From an uncultured Cytophagales bacterium (lineage in GTDB: Bacteria > Bacteroidota > Bacteroidia > Cytophagales > Bernardetiaceae), in assembly GCA_963761725.1 (NCBI GenBank), contig CAVXHP010000006.1:381534-445533 (forward strand): a stretch of 64,000 nucleotides of DNA. Reading direction: 5' to 3'. Below are positions 4,505 to 53,221 of the stretch, piece after piece. The position numbers and the translations under genes were made by a program. The notes below the pieces were generated by a model. That model ran no database searches. It saw only the letters and a list, made by a program, of their open reading frames with translations, and had not been told where the DNA came from. Position 1 is the first letter of the stretch; the number at the start of each line of letters is the position of its first letter.

Positions 4505-4847
4505 TTACTGTTCTGTATTCTGCTGACTTTCCTTCAAATAAAGAGCTAATTTTTCGCAAAGCTGATGAATTTCTTGTGCCATATATTCATCATTGGTAGC
4601 TCGCATAAGTGTATCAGCCATTCCACCCAAAATATTTATACTAAACCCTTTCATTTCCTCAACAGGCATGTCTTTTGTCCAAAGGTCTAAACGCAAGACA
4701 GTTTTTTTCATGGCCGTCCCAAATTGCTAAGGCAATTGCTTTTGCTTCTTCAAGTTGATTTCCTGTATCAGATGCTTTCCAAAATATTTTTTCTGGAAGG
4801 TCTTTGTCATCTAATTCTATACTAAAACGGATTTCAGATTGTTTCAT
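4505..4847 (-). pseudogene. gldC: gliding motility protein GldC, split by a +1 frameshift in an A7/T7 run (possible sequencing error)
   Basis: ORFs 4659..4847 and 4505..4711 together match GldC (MKQSEIRFSIELDDKDLPEKIFW...AIWDGHEK // RLDLWTKDMPVEEMK...MRATNDEYMA). The frames join at the gaaaaaaac homopolymer near 4694-4702. Confidence 0.75.
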
Positions 4848-4966
4848 TTTTTTGATTTATAATTTCTGTATCGTAATTTTCTTTAATTAAAAGAGGAACA
4901 CAAATTTACGAAAAAAAACCACCTTATTCTATACTTGAAAATTGAATAAGGTACTATTCATTCAAC

Positions 4967-5200
4967 ATGAGTGTCATTGGTAAAAATCAAAAAATCCGTC
5001 TATTAGCTACAGAGTAGCTTTACCTTGGTAGAACAAGAATAGAAATTGATTTAAAAAGCTACAGCGTAGCGTAACTTTATTTTTAATTGCCAATTGTAAA
5101 GTTTCGCTACGCTGTAGCTCTATTAAAATAGTGTTTTTGATGTTCTACCAAGGTTACGTTGCTCTGCAACTAAAAGTCAATACCTAACAATGACACTCAT
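4967..5200. repeat. MITE-like palindromic repeat, family A, copy 1
   Basis: ~234-bp element with terminal inverted repeats (atgagtgtcattgg ... caatgacactcat) and an internal long palindrome (agctacagcgtagcgtaacttt...aaagtttcgctacgctgtagct). Near-identical copies at 18990..19233 (inverted) and 37002..37234. Confidence 0.8.
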
Positions 5201-5239
5201 ATTGATTCATTGGTTCTATATGACTTTAGTTGCAAACTA

Positions 5240-5345
5240 AATCTTGTATTTTGTTCAAGTCTGTACCGAAGGTCTAATTTGAACAAAATAAGCCTTTTTG
5301 AGCTTTAAATACACATTTCAAACTGATCAGACCTTGCGGTGCAGA
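5240..5345. repeat. hairpin repeat, family B, copy 1
   Basis: ~105-bp element with inverted arms gtctgtaccgaaggtct / cagaccttgcggtgcagac and ttgttcaag/cttgaacaa. Second copy in reverse at 57640..57760. Confidence 0.7.
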
Positions 5346-5457
5346 CCAATTTAAAATAGAGTATAGATACAATTAATTTTGCTTTGCTACTTACTCAATT
5401 AGTTAGGTATTTGTATTCATTTACCATTGATAATTTACCATTCATCATTCATCATTC

Positions 5458-7829
5458 CTATCTTCTGCTACCCGAATAGCTCATTGCTTCTCCTTTTCCA
5501 AAGGCGTAACTTACTCCAAAGGTTACAAAACGTCCACGCATTCCAAAATTATAGTTTTCGAAGGTAGGCTGATTTACAAAACTTTCTTGTATTCTTGATG
5601 CAAAAACATCTCTAATTCCTAAATTACCAACTACTTTTCCTTTAAGAAACTTCTTACGAATACCCAAATCCATAAAAGCAAAACCACTTTGTTTTCCTTG
5701 TACTGTTTCGAAGCTAGAACGGTAATTTCCAGCTATTTCAAAATCAATATCAGCAGGTAATTTTATTTTCGTGTCCAGACGAACAGACCATTGCGTTCCT
5801 GTAAAATCAAATTCTCGGCTTTCAAAAACTCCTCTTCGGTCAAAATACGTGTAATTAAAGTTACCATTAAAAGTAAGCCATTTAATAGGATTGTATTTTC
5901 CATTCGTTTCAAATCCAATAAGCGAATTTGTTCCAATATTTTGAGGTGTAGTAAAGGTAACATTATCTACAAAAGTAGAAACTCGTTCTACTACATCGGT
6001 CGTATATCTATGGTAAACACTAGAACTCATTGAAGCTTCTCCAAGTTCGTAGATACTTGTCAGTTCATAAGAGTCTGTAAATTCGGGTTGAAGGTCTGGG
6101 TTACCTGTACGAATATTAAAATTATTTCTGATATTAAAGAAAGGATTCAAATCCCACAATCTGGGTCTAAAAATACGTCTGGAGTATCCCGCTTGAAGTG
6201 CAAAATTTTCTGATGCTGTAAAGGAAGTATGTAAAGAAGGAAAAAGATTAGTAAAGTTTTGAGAATTAGATTCGTTTGTAGTTGTCAATTCTGTTTGAAG
6301 GTCTGTATTTTCTACACGCAAACCAGCTTTGATACCCCATATTTCAGTTTCAAAAGCTCCTGTTGCATACACTCCCAATACCTTCTGATTCCATTCAAAA
6401 TTATTGGTAAAATCCAAATTGCTTACATATTCTTATTTACAAAATCTTGTACTTCAAAATCATTTCCTACTCATTAATAACATACAATGCACCTGTTTCA
6501 AAAGTATATTTTTCTGTTATTGGATTGACATAATCTGCCTTAAAAGTATAATCTGTTTGGTCAAAAGTAGTAGCTGTAAGCTGATTACTATCTACATTTT
6601 CGCCTTCTAGTGTTCTATCAATAAAGACAGAAGAAAGGTCTTTTGCAAACGAACTTCCCAATGCACTTACTTGAAAAGTATGGTCTTCATTATTTTTGAA
6701 AGTTTTTGTCCAATTGAGTTCGTATTGCCATTTTGGGTTGGTAGCTTCTGTATCTTCATTACGCACCCACCTGGGAAATAGTATTATCATCTTCTAAAAA
6801 ACTAAAATTTGTTTCAGAAGGTTGGTCTTCTATTTCGTAGGCAAAGTTTCCTGAAAGTGTAAAGACATTGTACTCGTTTAGATGATAATCTGTACCTAAT
6901 CTGATATTGAAAAAGGTTTCGTTTCTAAACTCTTCTCCATCACTCAAAATAGTTTGTCCACTAATTAAATTTCGGTTGATGGCTTCTGTTTGTCTAGGTC
7001 TTGAGCGATGACCAATACCAAATTGAGTAAATAAATTAAACTTTTCAGTACGACGATTTATACTTCCTCCAAGACTATGATTAGCAGGAATACCTGTATT
7101 TGCAGAAATAGAACCATTCCAACCTTCCTTTGACTCCTTTTTAAGAACAATATTCAAAATTCCTGAGGTACCAGAAGCCTCATATTTTGCCGAAGGATTT
7201 GTAATTACTTCAATACTTTCAATCATATCTGCGGTAATAGTACCCAGTCCAGTACCACCATCTGTCAAGATAGAGGGTTTGCCATTGATAAGGATTTGTA
7301 CGCCAGCACTTCCACGCAAACTAATTTCTCCATCAATATTTACATTTACGGAAGGTACATTATTTAAAACTTCTAATGCACTAGCTCCCGTAGTGCTTAA
7401 GTCTTTTCCGACATTAAAAACACGTTTATCTAATTGAAAAGTGGTCTTGGAGACTTCTCCTTCTACTACTATTTGATCAAGCAGTTTCATATCTGGAGCA
7501 AGGGAAACAGTTCCCAAATTTACTTCATCACCTGAAATAGTAAATGCTGTTAGTGTCTTGGATTGATAACCCATAAAACTAATTTTTACATAAAAATTAG
7601 TTTGAGTAGTAGAGACAGAAAATGTTCCATCTTCGGCTGATATAACTCCTGTGATGAGTTCTTCTGTTCCTGTTTTGTAAAGTGCAACGGTAGCATAAGG
7701 AACAGGTTGAGCGGTTTCTTCTTCAACTAAATTGCCAAAGACTTCTATTTCTTGTTCTTGAGCAGTAGCAAAATTACTTCCTATAAAAAATAAGAATAAA
7801 CAAACTACGTGTAGTAAATAATTTTTCAT
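5458..7829 (-). pseudogene. TonB-dependent outer membrane receptor (CarboxypepD_reg-like N-domain plus plug plus barrel), split into three ORFs by two frameshifts
   Basis: ORF 6759..7829 carries a signal peptide, a carboxypeptidase-regulatory-like domain and plug motifs (ISLRGS...). ORFs 6467..6790 and 5458..6417 continue the beta-barrel. Frame changes at ~6760-6790 and ~6417-6467. Confidence 0.7.
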
Positions 7830-8148: not shown

Positions 8149-9032
8149 ATGGCATCAGGATTTTTTGCTCTCTTCAACGATATTGCAGTACTTATGGACG
8201 ATGTGGCTGTAATGAGTAAACTTGCCACCAAAAAAACGGCAGGACTTTTAGCAGATGATTTGGCAGTAAATGCCGAGAAAGCATCGGGATTTGTTTCGAC
8301 TAGAGAACTTCCTATTTTATGGAGAATAACAAAAGGTTCTTTGCTCAATAAATTAATTATTTTGCCTGTTTTATTTCTTTTGAGTGCTTACTTTCCCGTT
8401 GCCATTGTCCCAATTTTACTGGTAGGAGGAGTTTATTTAGCGTATGAAGGTGCTGCAAAAATATATGAAACTCTTTTTGATAAGAAAGACAAAACTAAAG
8501 CAGGTATAGATAGCAAGAAAATGAGTGCAGCCGAGATAAAAGAGTATGAAGATGAAAAAATAAAATCAGCTATTATTGTAGATTTTATTCTGTCCGTAGA
8601 AATTGTAATTATCACTTTGAGTACCGTCATGAATAGTGATATTACTACACAAATTATAGTAGTAACCATAGTGGCTTTATAGCGACTGTATTTGTTTATG
8701 GACTTGTGGCTTTGCTTGTCAGAATGGACGATTTGGGATATAATCTGATAGCCAGAAACGACGAAGAGGATAGCACTTCGGATAAAATTGGACAGGCTTT
8801 AGTAAATACATTACCTTATTTAGTTAGAGGTTTAGGGATTTTGGGAACGGTAGCCATGATTTTGGTGGCAGGAGGAATATTTGTTCATAACATTGAATAT
8901 GTACATCATCTTGTAGAAGATTTCCCTGTTCCTACTATTCTTATTGAGTTTGTTGTCGGACTGATTGTTGGATTTTTGGCTTTGCCTATTGTAAAAGGAA
9001 TTATGAAGATTGTAGGCAAAAAAAACGAATAA
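8149..9032 (+). pseudogene. DUF808 (YedI-like) inner-membrane protein, split by a frameshift at a T-run near 8680
   Basis: ORFs 8149..8682 and 8706..9032 together resemble the ~290-aa DUF808 family (MASGFFALFNDIAVLMDDVAVMSK...). The frames merge at gtggctttatagcg (likely ttt vs tttt). Confidence 0.6.
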
Positions 9033-15396: not shown

Positions 15397-16101
15397 ATGG
15401 CTAATTTTATTAAATCTCTTACTGGTCTTTTGGTTGTTCTTTTACTAGGATTTGGTGTTTATTATATCATTCTTCGAAAAGATGCAAAGGAATTATTGAC
15501 ACCAATAGAAACAGTTAGAGAAACTAATTTCAAAACTGTTTTGGAGGAAGTGGAAAGTTTAGGGAAATTAGAATTGGTAAAATATAATTTTAAAGATGTT
15601 GTCGAACACACGCAAAAAAACGGTTATAGTTCTGTTTTAGATTCAAAAGTGCTGCTGATTGTAGCTGGAGAAGCAGTTGGTTGTATGGATTTGACACGCA
15701 TAAAGACGGAAGATATTACGCAAGTAGGTGATTCTGTTTTTGTTCATTTGCCTGCTCCTGAACTATGTTATTATAAAATTGACCTTCAAAAATCTAAAGT
15801 TTATGATTCAGAGTCTTTGCCTTTTATTGCAGATGATAATTTGATAGGAGAAGCGTACGCAAAAGCAGAAAAACAAATTGAAAAAGCGGCTTTAGAATCT
15901 GGAATATTACTACAAACACAAGCAATGGCAAAAACTATGTTACAACCATTTTTGGAAAAAATTACTAAAAAAACCGTCTTCCTGACCTTTGAGCCTATTT
16001 CTACAAGCGAAAAAGTAAATCCTGAAAGTAAAAATAATTCTCAGAAAAATATATTAAATAATTCTACACCTATTCAGTCCAAAAGTTTGAATAAAGAGTA
16101 G
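15397..16101 (+). CDS. hypothetical membrane-anchored protein (possibly DUF4230-like)
   Basis: 234 aa. Single N-terminal TM helix (LTGLLVVLLLGFGVYYIIL), then a soluble domain. Start codon directly preceded by a cgtaattcgtaattg motif. Confidence 0.45.
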   Translation: MANFIKSLTGLLVVLLLGFGVYYIILRKDAKELLTPIETVRETNFKTVLEEVESLGKLELVKYNFKDVVEHTQKNGYSSVLDSKVLLIVAGEAVGCMDLTRIKTEDITQVGDSVFVHLPAPELCYYKIDLQKSKVYDSESLPFIADDNLIGEAYAKAEKQIEKAALESGILLQTQAMAKTMLQPFLEKITKKTVFLTFEPISTSEKVNPESKNNSQKNILNNSTPIQSKSLNKE

Positions 16102-16135
16102 ATTATGTTGAATCTATACTAAATGTCTTGTCAAA

Positions 16136-16924
16136 CTATTCTTCTATTTCTCCTATTGAGTTTATCTCTTCCTTCTGTTCTACTTTTTCTTCTGCTGTTT
16201 GTTTTCGTTCTTCATACAAAAAAGAAATATCAATCCAATAATTTTCTGGATTTTCCAAATCTATATAAATAGGAAGCGTTTCTCTTTGCTCCAAAAAGTC
16301 TGTTGGATCAGCAGCTAAAGGTTCACTTTTAAAAAGAAGTGTACTAGAATCTTCATCTCTTTTCCACTCGCACAAAATCACAAAAGCAGGTTTGTCTTGC
16401 AACATAATTTGTGGGTCTTGCACAATGGATTGAATTACACCTTCCAAAACACTTCCATTCTCTAAAAGCCATTTTTTACGATTGGCACGCAACCAAATCA
16501 AAAGTCCCCAAATAATTCCTCCTCCTATAAAAGCAACTCCTGTGATAGATAAAAAACTCATCCAAAACCATTCATAACGCACAATATGAGTATCATCAGG
16601 ATTGATAATATCATAATAAATCTCTACTACTTCTCCTAACTCGTAGCTAGAAAAACGAGAAACCTCGTGCCTTGCTTCTACCATTATCTTCTGACTATCC
16701 AACGCATAAAAACCAATAACAGGATATGTTTTATCTTCTGGGAGAGGTTTTATCTGGACTACTCTACCCAAAGTACGCTCGTATTTTGTCTGACGAATTT
16801 GTTCTTTATTCCAACTCTGAGCAGCCAGAACCAGAAAAACCAAACCTGTCAGAATAAGCGATAGAGCGAGATAAAATGCTGTTCTTTTCATTTTTGTTTT
16901 ACTTCTGTAGCCGATAGTTTTCAA
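16136..16924 (-). CDS. hypothetical membrane protein (two TM helices flanking a soluble domain, acidic C-terminus)
   Basis: 262-aa ORF with TM segments at ~15-35 and ~120-145. No confident family assignment. Confidence 0.45.
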   Translation of the reverse strand: MKTIGYRSKTKMKRTAFYLALSLILTGLVFLVLAAQSWNKEQIRQTKYERTLGRVVQIKPLPEDKTYPVIGFYALDSQKIMVEARHEVSRFSSYELGEVVEIYYDIINPDDTHIVRYEWFWMSFLSITGVAFIGGGIIWGLLIWLRANRKKWLLENGSVLEGVIQSIVQDPQIMLQDKPAFVILCEWKRDEDSSTLLFKSEPLAADPTDFLEQRETLPIYIDLENPENYWIDISFLYEERKQTAEEKVEQKEEINSIGEIEE

Positions 16925-17125
16925 CTTTCGACAAACTGTTTTCTGACAGCTAAAAACTGTCAGCTACATTATTTCTATAATTATGCAAAATACATAAATT
17001 TTGTTCACTTTTTTAGCATTTTATTTCGATTATTTGTTTCTCTTTTTCAGACTTACCAAACAAAAAACCCAACTCTGATAAGAACTGGGCTTGTTTTTGA
17101 AATCATCTCAAAATAAGAAGCTAGT

Positions 17126-17578: not shown

Positions 17579-17756
17579 ACTTATTTTTTTTTAGAATTAC
17601 GATGAAATAAACGTTTTGTCTATTCAGATATATAAAATACATTTCCTACTACAATTAAATTTCCTAGCCAAACTATTTGCATTAGCTTTTGCTTTGAATA
17701 ATTTTGAGAATGAAAGATAGCCATAATAAATTAGTTCTCAATTTTCCTAAAAAAAT

Positions 17757-18830: not shown

Positions 18831-18989
18831 TTTAATTTCTTCTTTTAGAGTTTTTTTGAAAATTGGGTAAGCAAAAATACAAACTATTCGTTTAAGATTT
18901 TTATAAGTATAAAGTTTATTAGTTTATACTTTAAAACATTCGTATCTCAATTTGTTTTATTAGAATAGAATCAAAACTATTTTTTCAAT

Positions 18990-19233: not shown

Positions 19234-19274
19234 TTTTAGAAACAATTTAATCAGAAACATTAAAAACAAACATC

Positions 19275-19919: not shown

Positions 19920-20038
19920 TTTTTGATTGTTGGTGTCGCTTCGCTAAAATATCAACAATGGTAAAGTTTGATTGACATAAAAAATAGACTTATCACAAAT
20001 TTTGATTTTATGGTAAGTCTATTTTTTGTTGTATGATT

Positions 20039-20935: not shown

Positions 20936-20939
20936 TTTT

Positions 20940-22805: not shown

Positions 22806-22872
22806 TAACAAAAGTCTCTTAAGACTTCAATCAACTTTATTATTTCAGAGGGTAAAAGCGATGCAAATTTTG

Positions 22873-23140
22873 CTATGATGATAGGTTCTCAATAGTTACT
22901 ATTTTATTACACCTAACCTCACTTATTTTTGGTAATGGTCTGGATAAATATTGAATTTCTAAAAGAAATGAAAATATATCATTTCTTAGATTACTTGTTA
23001 TTGGACAAAGCAAATAATCATTATCTAAAGAATTTGAAATCTCATGCTTACAACAATTGCAGGTCGTCTTTTACTTTGAGAAAAATTATCAGAATAGGGA
23101 TAATTTACCCAAACTAAATCGCCTTGTTGGTATTTGCTCA
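22873..23140 (-). pseudogene. MazF/PemK-family toxin, frameshifted
   Basis: Hand-translated minus strand: MSKYQQGDLVWVNYPYSDNFSQSKRRPAIVVS... (PemK N-terminal signature). After a frameshift near 23040 it continues in another frame as ...DYLLCPITSNLRNDIFSFLLE...RCNKIVTIENLS. The ATG overlaps the upstream ORF stop (ATGA). Confidence 0.6.
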
Positions 23141-23395
23141 TTTATCTTGAAGTTGAGTTTCTTTAAAAAAATCGTCCCAAATGTTATCTTCTTCTGAATC
23201 CCAACTATTTTTGAAAGATTGCAAACTCAAATCTGTAAGCTCATCTATTTTTAATTCAGTTTCTACATCATCAATTTTTTCTACTTCTATATTTAATCGT
23301 TTAGCCATTTGAATTAAAATAGCTAAATCATTTAGGTTATTGGTTTTAAAAGATACATTCATAATTTTATCTAGTTGATTTTCACTAAAAATCAT
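23138..23395 (-). CDS. putative antitoxin partner of the MazF-like toxin (85 aa, family not recognised)
   Basis: Small acidic ORF immediately upstream of the toxin remnant, with its stop overlapping the toxin start in classic TA operon geometry. Confidence 0.4.
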   Translation of the reverse strand: MIFSENQLDKIMNVSFKTNNLNDLAILIQMAKRLNIEVEKIDDVETELKIDELTDLSLQSFKNSWDSEEDNIWDDFFKETQLQDK

Positions 23396-32708: not shown

Positions 32709-34035
32709 ATGAATTCATTTATCTATATTATTCTTCTACCTATTTTAGTTTTCTCTTGTACAAATAATAAAGTTGCTATTTCTAAAGAAGAAAATAAAAC
32801 AGAAACAATACATCAAGATTCTAGCAAAATAAGCCAGAAAGGAATTGTAATAGCTACTAACAAACTAATTATAGGAGCTGCACAAACTGAAAAGTATTTT
32901 GATTTAATCAAAAATAAGCGTGTCGGACTAGTTGTAAATCATACTTCAGTAGTTTATACTGAAAATGATTCACTTCATTTAGTAGATTTTTTACTCAAAA
33001 ATAAGAATGAGAACAAAATAAATATACAAACAATTTTTGCACCCGAACACGGTTTTCGGGGAACAGCAAGTGCAGGAGAGACTATCAAAAATGGAAAAGA
33101 TACAAAAACAGGAATTGATATAATTTCTCTTTATGGTAAAAACAAAAAACCAACTAAAGAACAGCTAAATAATATCGATGTTTTGATATTTGATATTCAA
33201 GACGTTGGTACCCGTTTTTATACTTACATTAGTACAATGCACTATTGTATGGAAGCTGCTGCCGAAAATAACAAACAAATAATTATCTTAGATAGACCAA
33301 ACCCAAATGGTTTTTATGTCGATGGTTGTATCAGAGAGGAAAAATACGAAGTCTTTTGTAGGAATGCACCCTATTCCGATTGTTCACGGACTTACAGTAG
33401 GCGAGCTTGCCAAAATGATTGAAGAAGAAAAATGGCTCAAAAATGAAAAAAAAGAAGTCGTACAATTAAAAGAAAATTTAATACTTATTCCTTGTCAAAA
33501 CTATTCTCACAAAGATAAATATAATTTACCTACTGCACCTTCTCCAAACCTACCTACTCAAAATTCAATTTTAATTTATCCTTCTCTATGCCTTTTTGAG
33601 GGAACAACAATGAGTGTCGGACGTGGAACAACTTTTCCTTTTGAAGTAGTAGGACATCCAAAATTCCCCAAAGAAAATGCATCTATTTCATTTACTCCGA
33701 TACCAAACGAAGGAGCAAAATACCCTCCTCTTGAAAATAAATTATGTTATGGAATCGATTACCAAACCCAAGAATTAGAAAGTAGTTTTTCATTAAAGCC
33801 TATTTTAAACTTTTATCAAATTATGAAAGATAAAGACTTAGAGGGAAAAGATAAAAGAGATAAAAAAGATAATTTCTTTAATTCCTACTTCAACACACTT
33901 GCAGGAAATGATAAACTACAAGCACAAATAAAAGAAGGTCTATCGGAGCAGGAAATCAAAGCAACATGGAAAGAAGATTTACAGACCTATAAAATAATGA
34001 GAAAAAAATATCTATTATATGAAGATTTTGAGTAG
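32709..34035 (+). pseudogene. DUF1343 / NamZ-like exo-beta-N-acetylmuramidase lipoprotein, split by a frameshift near 33335
   Basis: ORFs 32616..33422 (lipoprotein signal MNSFIYIILLPILVFSC from 32709) and 33307..34035 contain DUF1343 motifs (VGLVVNHTSV, DIQDVGTRFYTY, SFVGMHPIPIVHGLTVGELA). The frames join at gaggaaaaatacgaag. Confidence 0.65.
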
Positions 34036-36976: not shown

Positions 36977-37001
36977 GTTTAAATATTATTTCTACTTCAA
37001 T

Positions 37002-37234: not shown

Positions 37235-37945
37235 ATTTCTACTTGATTACTATTCTAAAATATTTTTAATTTCGTTTTTTTTGATATATTCAAGCTATGA
37301 AACGATTATTCTATCTTATTTCGGCTCTACTTTTTTGTCTTGGAATTATGTTTTACAAACAAACTCCTACTTACAATCCTTTTGATGAGGTTTTTGATGT
37401 TGATATAAATCAACTTGTAGAATGTGATACAATTTTTGCAGAATGTGGGTATATTCAATTTTCAACTAAAAACAGATAAAAATTTGAAATGTTTATTATC
37501 ATCTTTGGGAAGATTGATAATATTGTTTCAAAATGTTTTACTTATGTGGAAGATACTATTTCTATTCCAGAAAAGTATGATCATGAGAATTATTTGATTC
37601 TGTAATGAAATTACCCACCAATATAAAGAATTTTAATAATCATTAAATGAATTTGATTATTTCTATTTGGACAAAAGTAAAGATGGTTATTATACAAAAA
37701 TAAAAATTATTCATAAAACATCATCTTGATACAATTACAACTTCATTAGATTGGCAAGAGTTAGAAAACGATTCTACAAAAATCGTTCGTACCATAAGCT
37801 ATTATAAAATCAAACCAAGAATATATTCGTAATGCCAATGGAGGTTTCATAGAGTAAAATAAGTAATTATTTAATCTAAAAACTAAATTTCATTCTTTCG
37901 GTTTAGGATATTTAAAATCCAACTCATAAAATTAATTCTACCAAA

Positions 37946-39366
37946 AATGAAATTCTTTTATTCCCTTTCACTATTTCTATTCATTTCTTCTTTATCTTTG
38001 CTCAAAAAACTCAATTACCTATCTCTGAATATGACCCTAAAATTTATGAAATTATAAAAAATACTTCTACTCAAAATGTAGAAAACGATGTCAAAAAATT
38101 AGCAGACTTCGGAACTCGTCATACGCTTTCTGATACTGTTTCAGAAACTCGTGGAATTGGTGCAGCCAGAAGATGGATAAAAGCAGAGTTTGATAAAATT
38201 TCGGCAGCTTGTAATGGTTGTTTGGAAGTATCATATCAAAGAAATTTACTCAAAAAAGGAGCAAACGAACGCATTGTAAATGATGTTTGGATTGTCAATG
38301 TAATTGCAGTTTTGAGAGGAACAGAGAATCCAACTAGTTATGCTATAATGGCTGGTGATATTGATTCTCGTGCTTCTGATGTTACTAATTTTACAATTGA
38401 TGCTCCAGGTGCAAATGATAATGCTACAGGAATTGCTGGAATTTTGGAAGCTGCACGAGTTTTGTCAAAATATCATTTAAAGATGGAAGTAAGTTTAAAA
38501 ATAGTGTTGTATTTGCAGCACTTTCTGGAGAAGAACAAGGACTTTTCGGAGGACAGTTTATGGCAAAACAAGCCAAAAAAGACGGTTGGGATATTATTGG
38601 AGTAATTAATAATGATATGATTGGAAATATTGAAGGTGTTGATGGAGTAATTGATAATCGCAGTTTTCGTATTTTTTCAGAACCAACACCTGTTACAGAA
38701 ACTGAACAGGAGAGAAATAGAAGACGTTATTATGGAGGAGAAATAGATGGTGTTTCTCGTCAACTTGCTCGCTACATCCATTCTACTACTCAAAAATACA
38801 TGCCTGAAATGAACCCTACTATGATTTATCGCTTAGATAGATTTGGCAGAGGTGGACATCACAAACCTTTTAATGATGAAGGTTTTGCAGGAGTTCGTAT
38901 CATGGAAAGCCACGAAAATTATAACCGTCAGCATCAAGATATTAGAGTAGAAAACGGAATAAAATATGGCGATGTAGTAGAGGGAGTAAATTTTGACTAT
39001 TTGGCAAAACTTACTTCTGTCAATGCAATTGTACTTGCCAATTTGGGTTGGTCACCTTTAGCACCTCAAAATGTAAAAATTGGTGGAGCAGTTCAGCCTT
39101 CAACTACACTTTCTTGGGACAAGCCAAAACAAGACAATTCTACAATAATTGGTTACAAAGTTTATTGGAGAGAAACCACAGCTCCACAATGGAAAAATGC
39201 TCGTTTTGTGCCAAAAGAATTGTATCAAGATAATGGAAATACAAAAGAACAGATTACCTTTGTACTAGAAAATATCGTCATCGATAATTATCTTTTCGGA
39301 GTAGCTACGGTTGATGAAAATGGATATGAAAGTATAGTAAGTTTTCCAAAAGAAGTAATTCGATAA
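37946..39366 (+). pseudogene. M28-family aminopeptidase with C-terminal fibronectin-III-like domain, split by two frameshifts
   Basis: Signal peptide MKFFYSLSLFLFISS in frame A. Frame B 38001..38605 has DIDSRASDVTNFTIDAPGANDNATGIAGILEAARV. Frame C 38560..39366 has GQFMAKQAKKDGWDIIGVINNDMIGN... Frameshifts at ctcaaaaaactc (~38003) and catttaaagatgg (~38545). Confidence 0.65.
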
Positions 39367-45117: not shown

Positions 45118-47860
45118 CTAAAACTTAAAACGAACAGAAGCCAAAATTTGTCGTGGTCGCAAATCAAAAACAGTTTGTGTATAAAAAAAACTAGAATTAG
45201 AAATATTCACAAACTGTTTTGTATTCAGAATATTAGTCAGAGAAAGTTCTAAATCAATAGATTTTTTGACAAACGTATATCTATAAAGCATATCCAAAAA
45301 CTGGCTATTTTGAGTAATTGCATTGTTTGCTTCTATTTTATTCTGATAAAAATCTGCTTTTAGAGAAATATAATTTGCACTATTTGGATAAATGCTAAGT
45401 GAGATTTGATGTTCTTGTTGTTGGATTGTGTTTAGTCTTTCATCAGAAATAGTGGCATTCAGAAATGAAAAACGGTTTGAATACGTCAGACCAAAATACT
45501 TGCTAAAATCAGTATTTATTTTTCCTCCAAACTGTATATTCTGATTCTGGACTTGCTGTAAATTTTCATTAATAGAAACTAGGTTTTGGGAAAGATTGAA
45601 AGATGAATTTAGTGAAAAGGTAGTCTTTATTTTATAGAAAAATTTGCTTGCTGTTGAGTTTATTACATGCGAAGTAAAGTAATTAGTCCTCAAAATTCCT
45701 CTCAGAATAGCCGTTCCGTTCTCATCAAATTCGTTTTGCCAGATCAGGTTGGTCTTTCCATAACTATAAAAATAAAGTCCATTAAAAAAAATAGAATTGA
45801 TAGGATTTCGGTAACTAATTCCTGCATTGAGCGTAGAATTGAGTGTTTGCTGAAGTGGAACATCATTTCTTGTAATGCTTCTATAATTCTGCAAAATATA
45901 TGCTTCATAAAGCCGATTTATTTTACCAAAATCATTATTCAATCTTGCTCCTGCTGACATTTTCCAGTAATTACTCAACTCTTTTGCAACTCTCAAACTC
46001 GGTTCAATGGTTAGGCGTTCTAGCTTTTCAGTTTGGTTTTGTAGTTTTTTATCTATATCAAAATAATGTAGAGAAATAGGAACATCAAAATTAATTTTCC
46101 AGTTTTTCTTTTGATACTGCGTTCCTATTTCTGCAAAGGCTGTATAATGAGCAAAGGAAAGCTCATTTTGAAACTCATTTGATAATCTTAGATTTTTTGA
46201 ATCTGTTTCGAAAGCAGTATTGTTTTCTAGGTCAATAGAACTTTCTAATTTTTGGTAACTGGTCTGTATTCCCAGTTTTGGAGAAAGCGAAACACCTTTT
46301 ATTTTTTTGGTAAAACTGACCGAATTTTGAGTAAAAAATGTTTTTTGATTTAGATTTTGGATAATCTTGTTATAGTTTTCCACACTATCATTTGCAGCAA
46401 AATTTGTTAGATTAATTATCAGTTCTGGGAAAACAACAGGATTTACACCCAAAGAAGGAACATGATTTTGATAATTAATAGTAGAATTAAAATTTAGCAC
46501 ACTTTTTTTAATTGATTTGTTTGGAATAATCCAGTTTAGCGTATTGCTAATTTCTGAAAAAGGATTCAAAACGTCTTGAGAAATGGTTTGAATATCACTC
46601 TGTTCTTCTCTTCTAATTATTCCATTCTGACTGTTCCATTGTCTTTTTATTTCCAACTCATTTTTAAAATAGTTTTGTTTTGAGTTTTTGGTGAGAATAA
46701 ATTTTGCTTCTAGCTCACTATTTACAAATCTATTTTGAGTATTTTCTAGTAGATTTATTTCAGAATTAGGCAGGAAAATGGTTGTTTGTGTATTTCCAAA
46801 CTGCTTTTGAGTATCATTGAAATAAGAAAGATTTGTTTTTAGCTGATAGTCATTTTTTAGTTTAGTCAGAAAATTAAAACTAAATAAATGAATTTGATTA
46901 TTGAGCCAACGATTTTGAGTAAAATTAGGCGTATTCAACCTTTGAACAGAAAGCCAATCTATTTTTTTAGGAACTTGAGAGTTGGCAATAAAATCTTCTA
47001 GCGTAAACGAACGAAGCTGAGAAGAAACGTCATTTCCAGTATTATTGGTCTGATAAGAAGCAATCAATTGATTTTTCTTTCCAAAAAACATCGGAGTTAC
47101 GTTTGCATCCCACAGAAAAGGAATAAAATTTTGATTATCTTGAATTAGACCACTTCCTAGTTTTGCTGTTCCTGTTGTGGTAATTCCATTTTTGAGCTTT
47201 ATGTTTAGCGAAGTATTATTCGAAAAAGTAAGTGAATCTAATGCTTTTATAGGTTGATGATTTTCTAGTATTTCTACTTTTTCTACAGCATCAGCAGGAA
47301 TATTTTTGTTTGCTAAATCGTATTTTGCCTCCAATAAATCTAATCCTTCAATATAATATTTTTCAATGGGTTTGCCTTGATACAAAATTTTTCCATCTGG
47401 CTGTACTTCTATACCAGGCATTTTGGAGAGTACATCGGCAATTACTCTATCTTTTTGAGACTTAAAACTCTCTACATCAAAACTAAGTGTATCACCTTTT
47501 CTAGAAATCGGATTTGTCTTTTTAAAAACAATTTCTTCTAATACTTGTACTTCACTTTCCAATCTAAAATCAATTGTCTGATTTTTATTTGCTATCTTCT
47601 GTTCTACTTTTTTGTGTGAAATATGGGTAATTCGGAGCAGTAAAGAATCTGCAGGCAAATTAAACTTTAAGATTGTATTTTCCATCACTCTTCGAAATAT
47701 AAAATGGCTTTACCAGTTCGCTATCTGTATTGAGAATAATTATGCTTGCATTTGAGATAGGATTATCAAACTCATCGGTCAATATTCCTGTAATTTGAGT
47801 TGTCTGTGCAGTAGCGTAAAAACACAGATTGAGAAATAGAATTGTAAATAAATTACGCAT
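45118..47860 (-). pseudogene. TonB-dependent receptor-like outer membrane protein (CarboxypepD_reg-like N-domain plus plug plus barrel), frameshifted near 47660-47690
   Basis: ORF 47660..47860 has a signal peptide and MRNLFTILFLNLCFYATAQTTQITGILTDEFDNPISNASIIIL. ORF 45118..47688 has a plug region (GIEVQPDGKILYQGKPIEKYYIEG) and ends VRFKF. Confidence 0.65.
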
Positions 47861-48173
47861 TTTGTGGCTAATTTTAAACCCTAAAAATTCTTAGCGATTT
47901 TTAGGGTTTTATAGTTTTTGGAAAGAATCAAAGAAAATAGTTTACTCTAATTCAATTGGATTATTTTCACGTTTTAGACGAGCTTCTGTATTTTTTTTCA
48001 TTCGTCATCGTTTTTGCCCTCCAGAAGATATTCATATCAGCAAATTTCAATTGTGGATTTTCAGTTCAAATTTCTTTTTCATTTCCCAAAATTCTTTTTT
48101 AGAAATTATTTTTTCAAGTTGGTCTACAGCATCATAAACGGTAGACTTTCCAACAGTCTGTATTTCTAACAAA

Positions 48174-48750
48174 CTAAATTGATAATGACTTTTCAGAGTC
48201 TGTAATTTGCATTATTGTACCCAATAATCCAATAAATTTATAAGGAAAAGCAGTCAATGGAATTTTAGTCGTGTACCAAGCTGTATAATTTCTACCTGCA
48301 AAATTAGTGGTTGCTTTTTGACATAAATAATTTCCTATAGTAAGAGTGTCATCTGAAAGTTTCCAGTCTAAATTTATTTCTTCCTGATAAGCAAATTCTT
48401 GTAAAGCAACTCTTTCATAATGATTAGTGACATTCTTTTCATTAAAAATAATATATGTATTTTTTGGGTTCTTAGGACGATCGGTTGGGTTTCCCATCAT
48501 GTTCATCAACTGCTGGTTACTAGAAGTAAATACAACAGAATCTCTAACAAATAGATCTTGGCTTAAAAAGTAACTTGCATTGTCAAACATATCCAGATAA
48601 AATAACTCATTACTGACTGAATTAACGTCCGTAGAATCTAATCTATCTGATATTTTAAATCGTAGATTAGCGATGCCCCGTTTGTGCTTTTGATAAAAAC
48701 GGAAAAATCAATAAAACCGTGAAGAGAAAGTATTTCATTTTGATTTGGTA
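48174..48750 (-). pseudogene. GLPGLI-family-like secreted protein, frameshifted at a T-run near 48700
   Basis: Signal peptide MKYFLFTVLLIFPFLSKAQ in one frame (from 48750). Remainder is in ORF 48174..48590 and its upstream open frame, with FIGLLGTIMQI near the C-terminus. Confidence 0.45.
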
Positions 48751-49327
48751 TTAGTAAAAATGAAGAGCAGTTATATGATTAATTAAATTGTTAGTCTAAA
48801 TTAAAAATTAATTATACAAATTTATTACATTATTTTTTTTAAAATTTTTAAAAGTTTTTTTTGAACAACCTTGTTTTTGTACCAAAAACAGAAAATATAC
48901 TTAAAAAATTTTCATTAAATAATTATGTTTACTAAAATGATTTTCTATACAATTAAACAGAACTCTTTTATATAGGTCAGTTCATAGAGCAGACCGTTTA
49001 TAAGCATTAGTAGATGGTCTGCCCTTCGGGACTGACCTATCTATTCAAAAAATGTCTAGTAATTATGATTTTCATAAAAGCCAACATTGATATTTTCTTA
49101 GCAAACTCAAAGACAAAAAAACCATAATAAATTTTGTGTTTCATTATGGTTTTATTTTTCGGAAAAATGTTTTTTTTAATTAACAATTACAGGTACATAA
49201 CCAGCCTTTCTGCCAAGAACGACAGGTTCCAGAACCCTCACACTTTTTATCTTAGTAAGGACAATCAGTATTGTAGAAACTCCAAGCTCTAACACTCTGT
49301 GTTATTTGTTTATTTCTCTATCTTATC

Positions 49328-49681
49328 TTACGTAATTTTCAAAACCTCAAAAATAACCATCAGTTCGCTTTCTGTAACATTTTTCCCTAAATAGTCATAA
49401 CGAAAAGTAGTAATTCCTCTTTCACTATATTCAACAGTTTCCATAAAAGATAGTAAATCTTTAGAAGGAATTTTAGAAAAGATATCTTTATAGTGAAAAT
49501 TAAGAACAATATCTAGTTCTTCTCTATTTGTAATCTTAGTAGGAAGTTTTTCAGAATTTACTACTTCTTTTTCTAGAAAAGATAAAACTGCTGTTTCCTT
49601 TGTCATTTCTTCTTTACTATTTACGCAAGAGAACAATCCTATCATCACAAAGAGCATCAAAAAATAAAATGAATACTTCAT
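49328..49681 (-). CDS. hypothetical small lipoprotein
   Basis: 117 aa. Signal/lipobox MLFVMIGLFSCVNSKEE. Confidence 0.45.
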   Translation of the reverse strand: MKYSFYFLMLFVMIGLFSCVNSKEEMTKETAVLSFLEKEVVNSEKLPTKITNREELDIVLNFHYKDIFSKIPSKDLLSFMETVEYSERGITTFRYDYLGKNVTESELMVIFEVLKIT

Positions 49682-50228
49682 AAAAAATGTATTAAATGTG
49701 AATAAATATAAACGTTTAAATAATCTCTACTTATTCATATATTTTCTTGCAAGAAATACCTTTTCTGACCTATTCGCAACCACATCAAAAAGATATAAAA
49801 TACACAAAGTAAGAGAAATAATAAAACATATCAAATAAATGATACAATTCTCAAATAAGACTTTAAAATTGTATTTATCTTTTATCAAATTCAATTTCTT
49901 AGCTATTTTTGAGAATAATTATTTGTTAATGACAATCTAAATTAAAAATTAAAAATTAATTATGCAAATTTATTACATTAATTTTTTTAAACTTTTAGAA
50001 GATTTTATTGAACAATTACTTTGTTGAGTTAGAAACAAAGAAAAATAACTGAAAATAGTTTCATCAAATAGTGCTATTTAATTTCATGTATTAAAATTTC
50101 TAATCCAATTAGCAATAAAAACACAAAAATGGTATTTTTGTAGTTAAATGTATAACAGACTTCCCAGTCTGTTACAAAAATAGATTGTATTTGCACAGAT
50201 TAAAAAATCTGTACTACTTGAAAAATAT

Positions 50229-52074
50229 ATGAGTCAGCCCAAATCAAAAGATGAATTAAGAGAGCGTTTGAAGGATATTATCAGAAATATTCCACGCCAA
50301 CCTGGTATTTATAAGTATAAAGATGAGAGTAATGAAATTATTTATGTAGGAAAAGCAAAGGAATTACGCAAACGTGTTTCTAGTTATTTTACCAAATCGC
50401 ATCAATACGACCGAAAAACTCGGCAGCTTGTTCGTGAAATAAGAAATGTAGAAATTACTATTGTCGATAGTGAAGCTGATGCACTGCTTTTGGAAAATAA
50501 TTTGATAAAAGCACATCAGCCGAAATACAATATTTTATTAAAAGATGGAAAATCATATCCTTATATATGTATAACAGACGAGCCTTTTCCTAGAGTTTTT
50601 ATTACCAGAAACCCTAATAGAAAGCAAGGAACGCATTACGGACCTTATACAAATGGAAAAACTTTGTACGCTATCAATGAACTTGTCAAGAAATTATATA
50701 CAATCAGAACCTGTTATTATAATTTGAGTGAGCAAAATATTGAGGAAAAAAAATATAAAGTGTGTTTGGAATATCATATCAAAAACTGTAAAGGACCTTG
50801 TGAGGGTTTGCAAAGTGAAGCCGAATATTTGAAAGATATCGAACAGATTAGAAATATTTTAGTGGGTAAAACATCAAGAGCAAAAGAATATTTCAAAACC
50901 AAAATGAAAACGGCAGCCGAAACAATGGAATTTGAAGAAGCCCAAAAAGCAAAAGAAAAATGGGAAGCTCTTCATACCTATCAAAGCAAATCCCTTATCA
51001 CAAATCCGAATATTTCAGATACAGAAGTGATTGCACTCTTAGATGATGAAGCAAATGTTTATGTAAATTATCTACGAATTGAAGATGGAAGTATTGTTTA
51101 TACAGCCAATGAATCCTATAAAAAACGGCTTGACGAAACGCCAGAGGATATTTTGCCGATGGTTGCCGTAGAGTTTAGACAGCGTTTTGGAAGTGAAGCC
51201 GAGCGAATTGTGAGTAATATTTCGGCAGAAATTCCGTTGCCAAAAGTAGAAGTCATTAATCCAAAAATTGGAGATTTAAAAAAACTTTTAGATTTATCAC
51301 TCAAAAATGTAGAGTATTTTAAGAAAGAAAGATTAAGAAAGAAATTAGATTTTGCAGAAAAGAAACAAGAAAGAGGACTTTTAGCTGTAGAATCACTTGC
51401 AAAAAGATTTAGGATTAAAAGAATTGCCTTTACACGTAGAATGTTTTGATAACTCCAATTTGCAGGGTACAAATCCAGTTTCTTCGATGGTTTGTTTTAT
51501 TAATGGAAAACCATCAAAGAGAAATTACAGAAAATACCACGTCAAGACTGTAGAAGGAGCAAATGATTTTGCAACGATGTATGAAGTGGTTTATAGAAGA
51601 TACAGAAGGCTTTTAGAAGAAAAACAACCGTTGCCAAACTTAGTAATTGTAGATGGTGGGAAAGGACAACTTAGTTTTGGAGCACAGGCGTTGAAAGATT
51701 TAGATTTGTATGGCAAAATTCCAATTATTGGAATTGCGAAGCGTTTGGAAGAAGTTTTTTATCCAGAAGACCAGCATCCTATTTATATCAATAAAAAATC
51801 TCCTTCCATCAAACTCATTCAACATTTGCGTAATGAAGCTCACCGTTTTGCCATTACTTTTCATAGAGATGTTAGAAGTAAAAATGCACTTCGCAATCCA
51901 TTGGAAAATGTAAAAGGAGTGGGAAAAGCAACTATCGAAAAGCTACTTTTGGAATATAAATCTATTAAAAAAATTTCAAAAACACCAGATTCAGAATTGA
52001 AGGAATTGATTGGTACAAATCGTACTCGTTTGATTAGAGAATATATTAAAAATAATCCTGATTTGTTGAGTTAG
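50229..52074 (+). pseudogene. uvrC: excinuclease ABC subunit UvrC, split by a frameshift near 51420-51445
   Basis: ORF 50229..51449 has GIY-YIG (GIYKYKDESNEIIYVGKAKELRKRVSSYF) and the UvrBC region. ORF 51397..52074 has the RNaseH-like endonuclease and HhH C-terminus (LENVKGVGKATIEKLL). Confidence 0.85.
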
Positions 52075-52089
52075 AATTTTCATAAAAAA

Positions 52090-52125
52090 ATGACATTATT
52101 CAAAAAAGAATAATGTCGTTTTTTC
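52090..52125 (+). terminator. intrinsic terminator downstream of uvrC
   Basis: Stem gacattattc / gaataatgtc with aaaaaa loop, followed by gtttttt. Confidence 0.55.
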
Positions 52126-52182
52126 GTAATTTTTAGTTAGCTACGCTGATTATTTCGTAATTCGTAATCCGTAATTGAATTA

Positions 52183-53221
52183 CTATTTTCCCAAATGCAC
52201 ATAAACGGGAAAATGGTCACTATAACCACCTAGGTATTTTGTTCCTACATACATTCTAAAAGGATTTCCTTCGTATTTTCCTGATGCTTCTTTCAAATAT
52301 TCTGCATCATAAATAGCTCTATCAAGATAATTCAAGCCTTTGGCATTATTAGTTAAAAGTCCATTACTAATAATCATTTGGTCAAGCATATTCCAATCTC
52401 CTCTATAATTATAAGTTCCTTTTCCTTGTTTTTGTAAAGAATAAAAGACATTAAAAAGCTGTTTTCCTTGAAGGTCTTTCGAATCAACTGCCTGCAATCC
52501 ATTTGCAAGACTTTCATTAAATGGTTCATCATTAAAATCTCCCATCAAAATAATTTTTGCATTTTTGTTTTCAGCTTCCAAATCATCTACAATCTGACGA
52601 GCAACAAGTGCCGAAACCATACGTTTGGGTGCAGATTTCTCTTCTCCTCCACCTCTTGACGACCAATGATTTACAATAAAATGAATTTGTTCTCCTTCTA
52701 ATTTTCCAGAAACCAGCAAAACATCTCTCGTCTTATCATTATCAGCTAATTTTGCTTCGTAATTTTTGGAAAAAGTAACTTCAAAAACGGACTTCTTTAT
52801 AAAGAAGTGCTACATCAATTCCACGCTCATCTGGCGAATCATATTGTACATAATCGTAACCCTTTTCTTTCAGAATTGACTCATTGATTAAATCTTGTAA
52901 AACCTTTTCATTTTCTATTTCACAAACTCCAATTATTTCTGCTCCATCTTCATCTCCTATCGAACTGATTACTTTAGCTATTTTTTGTAACTTCTCTGCA
53001 TAGCGTTCGTTTGTCCACTCTTGCTTTCCGTTTGGCGTAAAATCATCATCAAAGGTATTTGGGTCATCATCTGTATCAAACAAATTTTCTACATTATAAA
53101 ATGCAACTGTATGTATCGGAGTAGATAGCTCTTGCTTATCAATTACGCTTTTGGGTGGCGAGCAAGAAAAAAGAACCAAAAGACTGATTATAATTATAGA
53201 AAATAGAAATATATTTTTCAT
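52183..53221 (-). pseudogene. endonuclease/exonuclease/phosphatase (EEP) family lipoprotein, frameshifted near 52760
   Basis: ORF 52781..53221 (signal plus VAFYNVENLFD...IGVCEIEN) and ORF 52183..52719 (LMGDFNDEP...SDHFPVYVHL). An alternative frame across the gap reads continuously (LLYKKSVFEVTFSKNYEAKLADNDKTRDVLLVSGKLEGE). Confidence 0.65.

What the first reader, a model, noticed from the sequence alone, without database searches (positions are those of the whole stretch)
4505..53221. At least 12 single-base frameshifts in 11 genes, nearly all at homopolymer runs
These genes each read as two or three adjacent ORFs that reconstitute a full-length conserved protein after a 1-nt shift: gldC (4694-4702, A7), TonB receptor 1 (two shifts, 6417-6467 and 6759-6790), DUF808 (8676-8684, T-run), mazF-like (about 23040), namZ (33335, A5), M28 peptidase (two shifts, about 38003 A6 and about 38545 T3/A3), TonB receptor 2 (47660-47690), GLPGLI (about 48700, T5), uvrC (about 51420-51445) and the EEP nuclease (about 52760). 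Essential or conserved genes such as uvrC and gldC are affected, and the positions sit in A/T runs. This pattern is typical of homopolymer indel errors (454/Ion/nanopore-type) rather than true pseudogenes. Downstream annotations would miscall these as pseudogenes or split CDS.
Basis: seen in the sequence. Interest (0 to 1): 0.55.

Follow-up and report, generated by a model that had tools for sequence, protein, structure and literature searches.

The report
Assembly-error frameshifts in a metagenome genome
About a quarter of the genes in this stretch of a Bernardetia genome assembled from a metagenome are broken by small insertions and deletions.

Summary
The split genes are real in the sequence and in the public record: the fragments are deposited as separate proteins on one 739,377-bp NCBI/ENA contig. 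The count is too low, though. I find at least 29 frame-breaking lesions in 12 genes: TonB1 3, mazF 4, GLPGLI 5, plus two missed genes with 3 and about 6.

The homopolymer attribution fails. None of the lesions resolved against relatives changes a run of 5 or more. The gldC A7 run is conserved in seven relatives, and that lesion lies 5-8 nt from it. None of the 54 coding runs of 7 or more is hit.

Four sibling contigs of the same ENA assembly (ERZ25039505) overlap the window at 96-99.7% identity. They carry intact uvrC, GLPGLI, mazF and the TonB2 junction. Against each sibling pair the window has almost no private substitutions: 0 of 108, 4 of 92, and 1 in 12 kb. It does have private indels, which sit on sites where the siblings differ, for example CTT / TTG giving CTTG in uvrC. 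The siblings carry their own breaks elsewhere, including recA.

Verdict: consensus artefacts of a strain-mixed, probably long-read, metagenome assembly. Low interest, and not a biological feature.

The parts
551..1748 (-). PGA_cap (CapA-like) gene, broken by 3 lesions: +1 within 1593-1613, +1 within 1546-1555 (GTC-TTGA-GAT), -1 within 1520-1530 (AC-CTT; relative has ACTCTT).
   Evidence: tblastn of L006/L008 orthologues hits two frames; DNA alignment and three-frame reading
4505..4847 (-). gldC, split into 62-aa and 68-aa ORFs.
4694..4697 (-). gldC lesion: one extra base in the Leu codon. Minus strand reads TGT-CTTG-CGT. Relatives read TGT-CTT-CGC (L006, L007) or TGT-TTG-CGT (L008-L012). The A7 run (plus strand T7, 4702-4708) is identical in all 7 relatives.
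   Evidence: alignment; coordinates
5458..7829 (-). TonB-dependent receptor 1 (791 aa when rejoined), in four frame segments.
6767..6776 (-). TonB1 lesion 1: +1. TCC-CAGG-TGG; relatives have Q (CAG/CAA), R or K at this residue.
6466..6475 (-). TonB1 lesion 2: -1. AAT-GA_-GTA; L015 has GAT.
6426..6437 (-). TonB1 lesion 3: -1. AAT-AA_-GAA; L015 has AAT. The 14-aa segment VGNDFEVQDFVN between lesions 2 and 3 is in a third frame and is conserved in all relatives.
8149..9032 (+). DUF808 gene. -1 lesion at 8675-8678: window GTGGC-TTTATAGCG against L015 GTGGCACTTATAGCG (Leu codon).
22808..23141 (-). mazF/PemK toxin gene. Four single-base deletions relative to the intact 114-aa copy on sibling contig L021: 23044 (A of AA), 22890 (C), and two in 22814-22828 (G; A of AA). 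Only 6 substitutions in 610 aligned bases of the toxin-antitoxin module.
32709..34035 (+). namZ (DUF1343). +1 lesion somewhere in 33324-33351. An A5 run at 33340-33344 is a possible site but not a demonstrated one.
37297..37857 (+). Hypothetical gene upstream of M28, with about 6 frame switches near 37480, 37514, 37595, 37640, 37705-37723 and 37807-37826.
37947..39366 (+). M28 peptidase. A -1 lesion in the signal-peptide region 37950-37996, upstream of the conserved FAQ motif and therefore not in the A6 run. A second -1 lesion within 38465-38502, in a length-variable loop.
45118..47860 (-). Outer-membrane CarboxypepD_reg protein ('TonB receptor 2'). +1 lesion at 47665-47677: minus strand TAC-AAT-C-TTA-AAG against L004 TAT-ACC-TTA-AAG.
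47945..48738 (-). GLPGLI/Porph_ging gene. Lesions: -1 at 48668 and +5 (AATCT duplication) at 48635, both shared with L005; +1 at 48194; +2 at 48064; -2 at 48033. There is also an in-frame +3 at 48005. The copy on L004 is intact (262 aa).
50229..52074 (+). uvrC, split into 406-aa and 225-aa ORFs (public proteins P0122 and P0138).
51399..51399 (+). uvrC lesion: an inserted G. Window TCA-CTTG-CAA; sibling L004 TCA-CTT-CAA; sibling L005 TCG-TTG-CAA.
52183..53221 (-). Endonuclease/exonuclease/phosphatase gene. +1 lesion within 52783-52792: minus strand GAA-GTCC-GTTTTT against L002 GAA-CCT-GTTTTT. Parsimony places it in GTCC; the adjacent T5 is not excluded.

Best explanation
The window is part of a 739-kb contig of a Bernardetia (Cytophagales) metagenome-assembled genome. 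Its sequence is a population consensus of several co-occurring strains that differ by 0.3-4%. The frame-breaking indels are errors of that consensus, not mutations carried by any cell.

Two things appear to happen.
(a) Where strains differ by one or two nearby substitutions, the read pile-up can represent the difference as an insertion plus a deletion. The consensus then keeps both alleles in tandem (+1) or neither (-1). Examples: CTT / TTG gives CTTG in uvrC; GAC-TTTT-A / GA-TTTT-CA gives GACTTTTCA in GLPGLI. The same CTTG hybrid occurs in gldC, and CAG / AGG gives CAGG in TonB1.
(b) In accessory or fast-evolving segments that only some strains carry (the mazF module, GLPGLI, the hypothetical gene at 37.3 kb), read support is presumably thinner and more heterogeneous, and plain single-base errors persist.

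Homopolymer length plays no detectable role.

Shown:
- the lesions, their positions and their sequence contexts;
- intact alleles on sibling contigs;
- the near absence of private substitutions in the window;
- the coincidence of window-private indels with sites where the siblings differ;
- independent lesions in the sibling contigs.

Inferred:
- the long-read, Flye-type origin (from record names such as contig_2059, and from consecutively numbered alternative contigs);
- the pile-up mechanism;
- the lower read depth in accessory segments.
For: Source. uvrC, gldC, TonB1, DUF808, namZ, M28, TonB2 and EEP fragments and 9 intact window proteins are all on one NCBI+ENA contig of 739,377 bp.

Sibling contigs of ENA assembly ERZ25039505 overlap the window:
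- L004 (contig_18620) and L005 (contig_18621): 96% identity over 47.5-52.1 kb.
- L013 (contig_11872) and L021 (contig_11873): 96-99.7% identity over 15.5-28.3 kb.

Intact alleles on siblings:
- uvrC, 614 aa, one residue different from the rejoined window protein (P0121);
- GLPGLI, 262 aa, and the TonB2 junction;
- mazF, 114 aa.

Three-sequence counts of private substitutions:
- 47767-48784: L005 55, L004 32, window 4.
- 49420-52070: L005 89, L004 19, window 0.
- 16188-28299: L013 280 and L021 237 (inflated where L013 lacks the toxin-antitoxin module), window 1.

The window's private differences are frameshifting indels. All three in the L004/L005 stretch lie within 1 nt of an L004/L005 substitution. 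The chance per site is 0.22, 0.22 and 0.11, so about 0.005 jointly.

At 48000-48075 the window alternates between L004-like and L005-like strings every 3-10 nt.

Sibling contigs and a second Bernardetia genome in the same assembly have their own lesions:
- L005: uvrC broken twice.
- L013: at 20385.
- L021: histidine kinase split.
- L002: recA frameshift inside the Walker A motif, and TAA in place of CAG in M28.

All isolate genomes (B. litoralis DSM 6794, MNP-M8, Wsw4-3y2, ABR2-2B, OM2101) have single-frame uvrC and gldC. Three of them (B. litoralis DSM 6794, MNP-M8, Wsw4-3y2) also have single-frame TonB1.

No lesion lies in a run of 6 or more, although 174 such runs are in coding DNA.

Background: Flye collapses strains into consensus contigs (PMC8302730). 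Long-read MAG indels cause frameshifts (PMC9262707).
Against: No reads are available, so no lesion is directly shown to be absent from the molecules.

Polymorphism does not always produce lesions. purL and the histidine kinase (23.5-28 kb) are intact in the window, although L013 and L021 each differ from the window at roughly 120-150 sites there.

The four mazF deletions are not next to sibling differences, so mechanism (a) does not explain them.

Two GLPGLI lesions (48668, 48635) are shared with sibling L005 and could be real variants.

For TonB1, DUF808, namZ, M28 and EEP the nearest relatives are only 80-85% identical in DNA (for namZ only 45-51% protein identity). There the 'both alleles in tandem' reading is compatible with the data but not demonstrated.

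The sequencing platform is inferred from contig names only.
Confidence: 0.85

Rival explanations
1. Classical homopolymer-length miscalls (454, Ion Torrent, nanopore R9) are the main cause. Each lesion would be a +-1 error in the length of an A or T run.
For: Runs of exactly 5 lie within 6 nt of 5 of the 28 lesion positions, including namZ (A5 at 33340-33344), uvrC (A5 at 51401-51405) and EEP (52783-52787). The namZ and EEP lesions cannot be placed more precisely than intervals that include those runs. Several lesions can be written as changes of 1 to 2 or 2 to 3 in very short runs.
Against: The gldC A7 run is conserved in 7 relatives, and the extra base lies 5-8 nt away, outside the run. The uvrC extra base is a G between T and C, two bases before the A5 run, which itself has the same length in L002-L005. 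None of the 174 coding runs of 6 or more, or the 54 of 7 or more, is affected. The longest run touching the resolved lesions is 1-4 nt. The 5-in-28 proximity to 5-mers is about the base rate: 14% of positions lie within 3 nt of such a run and 28% within 10 nt.
Confidence: 0.05
2. The lesions are real. This lineage would be undergoing genuine gene decay, with about a quarter of its genes being recent pseudogenes, as in host-restricted bacteria.
For: Some genes carry many lesions (GLPGLI 5, the hypothetical gene about 6), as old pseudogenes do. Two GLPGLI lesions are shared with sibling contig L005. The broken genes are individually dispensable. Strictly essential genes in the window (tuf, purL) and recA are intact.
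Against: The window has 0-4 private substitutions per 1-2.6 kb, but several private frameshifting indels in coding DNA. That indel-to-substitution ratio is not seen in natural divergence. TonB1 keeps 82% identity to orthologues in every segment after three frameshifts, with no stops in the correct frames. Intact alleles co-occur in the same sample. Other genomes and contigs of the same assembly show the same kind of damage in different genes, including the recA Walker A motif. The hybrid strings CTTG and C-TTTT-C equal the union of two co-occurring alleles.
Confidence: 0.07
3. Programmed ribosomal frameshifting or transcriptional slippage restores these proteins in vivo.
For: None specific. 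Only that the shifts are +-1 and that both frames stay open around each junction.
Against: At least 29 sites in 12 unrelated genes. There is no shared slippery motif (contexts listed). Every orthologue in more than 20 Bernardetia genomes and contigs is in a single frame. Some genes would need 3-6 successive shifts.
Confidence: 0.01

Closest known systems
Frameshift (truncated-protein) errors in long-read genome and metagenome assemblies, as measured by IDEEL-type tests (Sereika et al. 2022, PMC9262707; Watson and Warr 2019, cited from memory)
   Same: Many genes are split by 1-nt indels. The fragments are deposited as separate short proteins. Orthologues in isolate genomes are full length. The damage hits random genes in several contigs of one assembly.
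   Different: The textbook form of this error is concentrated in homopolymers. Here long homopolymers are untouched, and the lesions sit in runs of 1-4 nt.
Strain-collapsed consensus contigs from strain-oblivious assemblers such as (meta)Flye (Strainberry paper, PMC8302730)
   Same: The main contig has no private alleles relative to pairs of alternative contigs from the same assembly. It behaves as a centroid or mosaic of co-occurring haplotypes 96-99.7% identical to it.
   Different: That paper describes collapse and loss of identity. It does not describe conversion of substitutions into tandem-allele indels. The link to frameshifts at polymorphic sites is my inference from this window.
Genuine pseudogene-rich genomes (for example Mycobacterium leprae or Sodalis-type recent symbionts; from general knowledge)
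   Same: A high fraction of broken genes, some with several lesions.
   Different: Those genomes also show private substitutions, nonsense codons, deletions and IS expansion, and their lesions are found in every read. Here private substitutions are absent, and intact alleles co-occur in the same sample.

Membership tests
Homopolymer-length sequencing error | The indel changes the length of a mononucleotide run, typically 5 nt or more | tested here: not met
   Resolved lesions touch runs of 1-4 nt. The gldC A7 and uvrC A5 runs have the same length as in relatives.
Homopolymer-length sequencing error | Error frequency rises with run length, so long runs are preferentially hit | tested here: not met
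   0 lesions in 174 coding runs of 6 or more, 54 of 7 or more, and 13 of 8 or more.
Consensus artefact of a strain-mixed (collapsed) metagenome assembly | Alternative contigs of the same assembly cover the locus and carry the intact allele | tested here: met
   L004 has intact uvrC, GLPGLI and the TonB2 junction. L021 has intact mazF. All are from ERZ25039505. No sibling contig was found for gldC, TonB1, DUF808, namZ, M28 or EEP.
Consensus artefact of a strain-mixed (collapsed) metagenome assembly | The consensus has no private substitutions relative to the co-assembled haplotypes | tested here: met
   Window-private substitutions: 0 of 108, 4 of 92, and 1 in 12 kb.
Consensus artefact of a strain-mixed (collapsed) metagenome assembly | Lesions coincide with polymorphic sites, with both alleles in tandem or neither | tested here: inconclusive
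   Met for 51399, 48194 and 48064 (joint chance about 0.005). Compatible for gldC, TonB1 6771, TonB2, DUF808 and one PGA_cap lesion, using more distant relatives. Not met for the four mazF deletions.
Consensus artefact of a strain-mixed (collapsed) metagenome assembly | Individual reads do not carry the lesion | not testable with these tools
   No read data are available.
Genuine pseudogene | The lesion is accompanied by lineage-specific substitutions or relaxed constraint | tested here: not met
   Almost no private substitutions. TonB1 segments downstream of the lesions are 82-92% identical to the orthologue, against 72% upstream.
Genuine pseudogene | The same lesion is present in independent close relatives | tested here: inconclusive
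   Only GLPGLI 48668 and 48635 are shared, and only with L005, which is itself an error-bearing contig of the same assembly. All other lesions are private to the window.
Programmed frameshift | The shift site and two-frame architecture are conserved in orthologues | tested here: not met
   All orthologues examined are in a single frame.

The most novel reading that the evidence does not exclude
A minority of the lesions might be real strain-level variants rather than consensus errors. The candidates are the multi-lesion accessory genes: GLPGLI, whose -1 and +5 changes are shared with sibling L005, and the hypothetical gene at 37.3-37.9 kb. That would mean accessory surface-protein genes are being inactivated differently in co-existing Bernardetia strains.
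Probability: 0.08. Interest if true: 0.3.

Novelty: not a real feature. Interest (0 to 1): 0.1.

Why it matters
This matters mainly for data hygiene. About a quarter of the genes in this public MAG stretch are deposited as split or truncated proteins: uvrC as 406 + 225 aa, gldC as a 62-aa N-terminal fragment plus a 68-aa ORF for the rest. Such entries seed singleton clusters in protein databases. They inflate pseudogene counts and could be misread as loss of repair or motility genes.

The useful nuance is that homopolymer-aware polishing would not repair these lesions, because they are not in homopolymers. They need strain-aware re-assembly, read-level phasing, or reference-guided frameshift correction. 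The main contig should also be treated as a population consensus rather than the genome of one strain.

Tried and rejected
1. A genome-contig scan with the intact 625-aa neighbour returned only one distant locus.

2. Exact look-ups of the window's own proteins in the look-up of encoding contigs failed, although the proteins are in the collection. The source contig is apparently not indexed, so its record name and sample could not be read.

3. A concatenated query of five rejoined proteins to the search for homologous proteins returned nothing and wasted a search.

4. L014 (ERZ25070556), fetched through the nucleoside transporter, was not syntenic for DUF808/TonB1.

5. The metagenome-contig scan for namZ gave only relatives at 45-51% identity. 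These confirm the length of the rejoined protein but cannot place the lesion.

6. An apparent frameshift at the start of tuf (35.6 kb) was rejected. It comes from a public gene call on L002 that reads through tRNA-Thr, and tuf is intact.

7. I considered clustering of lesions along the window as evidence. Once the missed lesions were added, the large gaps were no longer significant. Only the within-gene hotspots (GLPGLI, the hypothetical gene, mazF) stand out.

8. I considered a systematic motif error. CTTG occurs at three +1 lesions, GATC at an L013 lesion and CCAGG at TonB1 6771. I rejected it as a general cause because no single motif is shared by all the lesions; how many copies of these motifs are unaffected was not counted.

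9. dN/dS was not pursued. The window has no private substitutions against which to measure it.

10. A literature search for the assembly accession found nothing.

Full report
**What the window is.** The window is 32% G+C. A rejoined UvrC finds its best matches in Bernardetia (Cytophagales). The closest are 95% identity to a protein on a 1.87-Mb contig of ENA assembly ERZ25039505, and 92% to Bernardetia sp. MNP-M8.

A cluster look-up showed that the two uvrC fragments of the window are themselves public proteins: P0122 (406 aa) and P0138 (225 aa). Both lie on one NCBI+ENA contig of 739,377 bp. The same holds for the gldC, TonB1, DUF808, namZ, M28, TonB2 and EEP fragments and for nine intact proteins. 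So the lesions are in the deposited assembly.

Record names in that assembly have the form contig_2059, contig_18620/18621 and contig_11872/11873. I take this as a sign of a Flye-type long-read metagenome assembly. That is an inference, since I could not read the record for the source contig.

**Checking the observation.** Three-frame reading confirms that each named gene is split. Orthologues show that the pieces rejoin into colinear full-length proteins:
- GldC: 111-114 aa in relatives.
- TonB1: 791 aa against 790-795 aa, 83% identity, 100% coverage.
- DUF808: 296 aa in L015.
- MazF/PemK: Pfam positions 2-101 of 109 are covered only by the joined segments (47.8 bits, against 21.1 and 16.6 for the fragments).
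- NamZ: gapless against five homologues.
- M28.
- The CarboxypepD_reg outer-membrane protein called 'TonB receptor 2'.
- GLPGLI.
- UvrC.
- The EEP nuclease.

The count is too low:
- TonB1 has three lesions. A conserved 14-residue segment, VGNDFEVQDFVN, sits in a third frame between two single-base deletions.
- mazF has four single-base deletions relative to an intact sibling copy.
- GLPGLI really runs from 48738 to 47945 and has at least five frame-breaking changes.
- A PGA_cap gene (551-1748) has three lesions.
- A hypothetical gene (37297-37857) switches frame about six times.

The minimum total is 29 lesions in 12 of about 49 genes.

**The homopolymer claim.** Seven relatives all have A7 in gldC, exactly as the window does. 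The extra base is in the Leu codon 5-8 nt beyond the run. The window reads TGT-CTTG-CGT, where relatives read TGT-CTT-CGC or TGT-TTG-CGT.

In uvrC the extra base is the G at 51399, lying between CTT and CAAAAAG. The A5 run has the same length in four relatives.

The remaining resolved lesions touch runs of 1-4 nt. None of the 174 coding runs of 6 or more is hit, nor any of the 54 of 7 or more or the 13 of 8 or more.

A run of 5 or more lies within +-15 nt of 37% of all positions in this A+T-rich window. That is why a reader working from ORF overlaps of 30-50 nt would see 'A/T runs' at most junctions. Only namZ (A5) and EEP (T5) remain compatible with a run-length change, and neither is resolved.

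**Sibling contigs.** Four short contigs of the same assembly overlap the window:
- L004 and L005: 96% identity over 47.5-52.1 kb.
- L013 and L021: 96-99.7% identity over 15.5-28.3 kb.

Intact alleles on these contigs:
- L004 encodes an intact 614-aa UvrC, one residue different from the rejoined window protein. It also has an intact 262-aa GLPGLI protein and an in-frame TonB2 junction.
- L021 encodes an intact 114-aa MazF next to an antitoxin identical to the window's.

The siblings carry their own breaks:
- L005 has two other frameshifts in uvrC.
- L013 has one at 20385, where the window is intact.
- L021 has a split histidine kinase.

L002 is a different Bernardetia species in the same assembly. 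It has a frameshift inside the recA Walker A motif, and TAA in place of CAG in M28. Damage of this kind is therefore a property of the assembly and not of one lineage.

**The decisive pattern.** In three-sequence comparisons the window has almost no private substitutions:

| Region | Sibling 1 private | Sibling 2 private | Window private |
|---|---|---|---|
| 47767-48784 | L005: 55 | L004: 32 | 4 |
| 49420-52070 | L005: 89 | L004: 19 | 0 |
| 16188-28299 | L013: 280 | L021: 237 | 1 |

The L013 and L021 counts are inflated where L013 lacks the toxin-antitoxin module.

A real third strain should have a branch of its own. A majority consensus of a mixed population has none.

What the window does have privately is indels in coding DNA, and they fall on sites where the siblings differ:
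- At 51397-51399, L004 has CTT, L005 has TTG, and the window has CTTG.
- At 48189-48194, L004 has GAC-TTTT-A, L005 has GA-TTTT-CA, and the window has GACTTTTCA.
- At 48064, the window inserts two bases into a cluster of sibling differences.

All three lie within 1 nt of a sibling substitution. The joint chance of that is about 0.005. Between 48000 and 48075 the window alternates between L004-like and L005-like strings every few bases, which recombination does not produce.

The same 'two alleles in tandem' reading fits several other lesions, using more distant relatives:
- gldC: CTT and TTG, both seen in relatives.
- TonB1 6771: Q and R are both seen in relatives, and the window's CAGG equals CAG plus AGG in tandem.
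- TonB2: AAT-C-TTA.
- DUF808: the lesion falls in a Leu codon.
- One PGA_cap lesion: TTG/TTA giving TTGA.

For these it is compatible with the data but not proven.

**What this mechanism does not explain.** The four mazF deletions are not adjacent to sibling differences. They lie in a toxin-antitoxin module that sibling L013 lacks altogether, so the module is accessory. I infer thinner read support there, with plain consensus errors persisting.

purL and the histidine kinase are intact in the window, even though L013 and L021 each differ from the window at roughly 120-150 sites there. So polymorphism is not sufficient to cause a lesion. Two GLPGLI changes are shared with L005 and may be real variants.

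**Rivals.**
- Genuine gene decay is unlikely (about 0.07). The indel-to-substitution ratio is unnatural. TonB1 stays 82-92% identical to its orthologue after each frameshift. Intact alleles co-occur in the same sample.
- Programmed frameshifting is excluded for practical purposes. All orthologues are in a single frame, there is no shared motif, and some genes would need up to six shifts.
- Classical homopolymer error is refuted for the resolved sites. At most it explains one or two of the unresolved ones.

**Comparison with what is known.** Frameshift-ridden long-read MAGs are well documented, usually with homopolymers as the culprit (PMC9262707). Flye is known to collapse similar strains into consensus contigs (PMC8302730). 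This window is an ordinary instance of the first problem, caused largely by the second, in a data set where homopolymers are called correctly.

**Verdict.** This is not a biological feature. Interest is low. The practical message is that this MAG needs strain-aware polishing, and that its split proteins should not be read as gene loss.

Noticed in passing
window 4958-5215, 18985-19230, 36985-37245; L021 9050-9360: A MITE-like intergenic repeat of about 260 bp. It has 17-nt terminal inverted repeats (CAATATGAGTGTCATTG ... CAATGACACTCATATTG) and internal GCTACAGAGTAGC palindromes. The copy at 18985-19230 is absent from sibling contig L013 and present in L021, so it is an insertion polymorphism among co-occurring strains.
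   Followed up: partly
window 22808-23395: The mazF/antitoxin module is present in the window and in L021 but missing from sibling haplotype L013, which has about 500 bp of other sequence between purL and the thioredoxin-NHL gene.
   Followed up: partly
L004 1260-2447 (equivalent to window about 48785-49100): Sibling contig L004 has an ISL3-family transposase inserted between GLPGLI and uvrC. It is absent from the window and from L005.
   Followed up: no
L021 12222-14558 (adjacent to window about 16105-16188): Sibling contig L021 carries an N6/N4 DNA methyltransferase plus a CfrBI-like restriction enzyme that the window and L013 lack. This is a strain-variable restriction-modification system.
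   Followed up: no
window 35051-35599: A tRNA-Tyr, tRNA-Gly, tRNA-Thr cluster lies directly upstream of tuf. The public gene call on the related contig (L002, 459 aa) and the window's longest ORF (35557-36879, TTG start) both read through or up to tRNA-Thr. The true tuf starts near 35692 and is intact.
   Followed up: yes
L002 7598-7732 and about 1760: In a second Bernardetia genome of the same assembly, recA is split by a 1-nt insertion plus a G-to-A change inside the Walker A motif (GPESSGKT). Its M28 peptidase has TAA where the window has CAG, with conserved in-frame sequence continuing after it.
   Followed up: partly
window 15500-28303 and 47566-52156: The main contig behaves as a centroid or mosaic of pairs of consecutively numbered alternative contigs. 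It is L013-like (99.3-99.7% identity) over 15.5-22.6 kb. Over purL and the following intergenic region (about 23.5-26.5 kb) it agrees with either L013 or L021 at every variable site. It should be treated as a population consensus rather than one strain's genome.
   Followed up: yes
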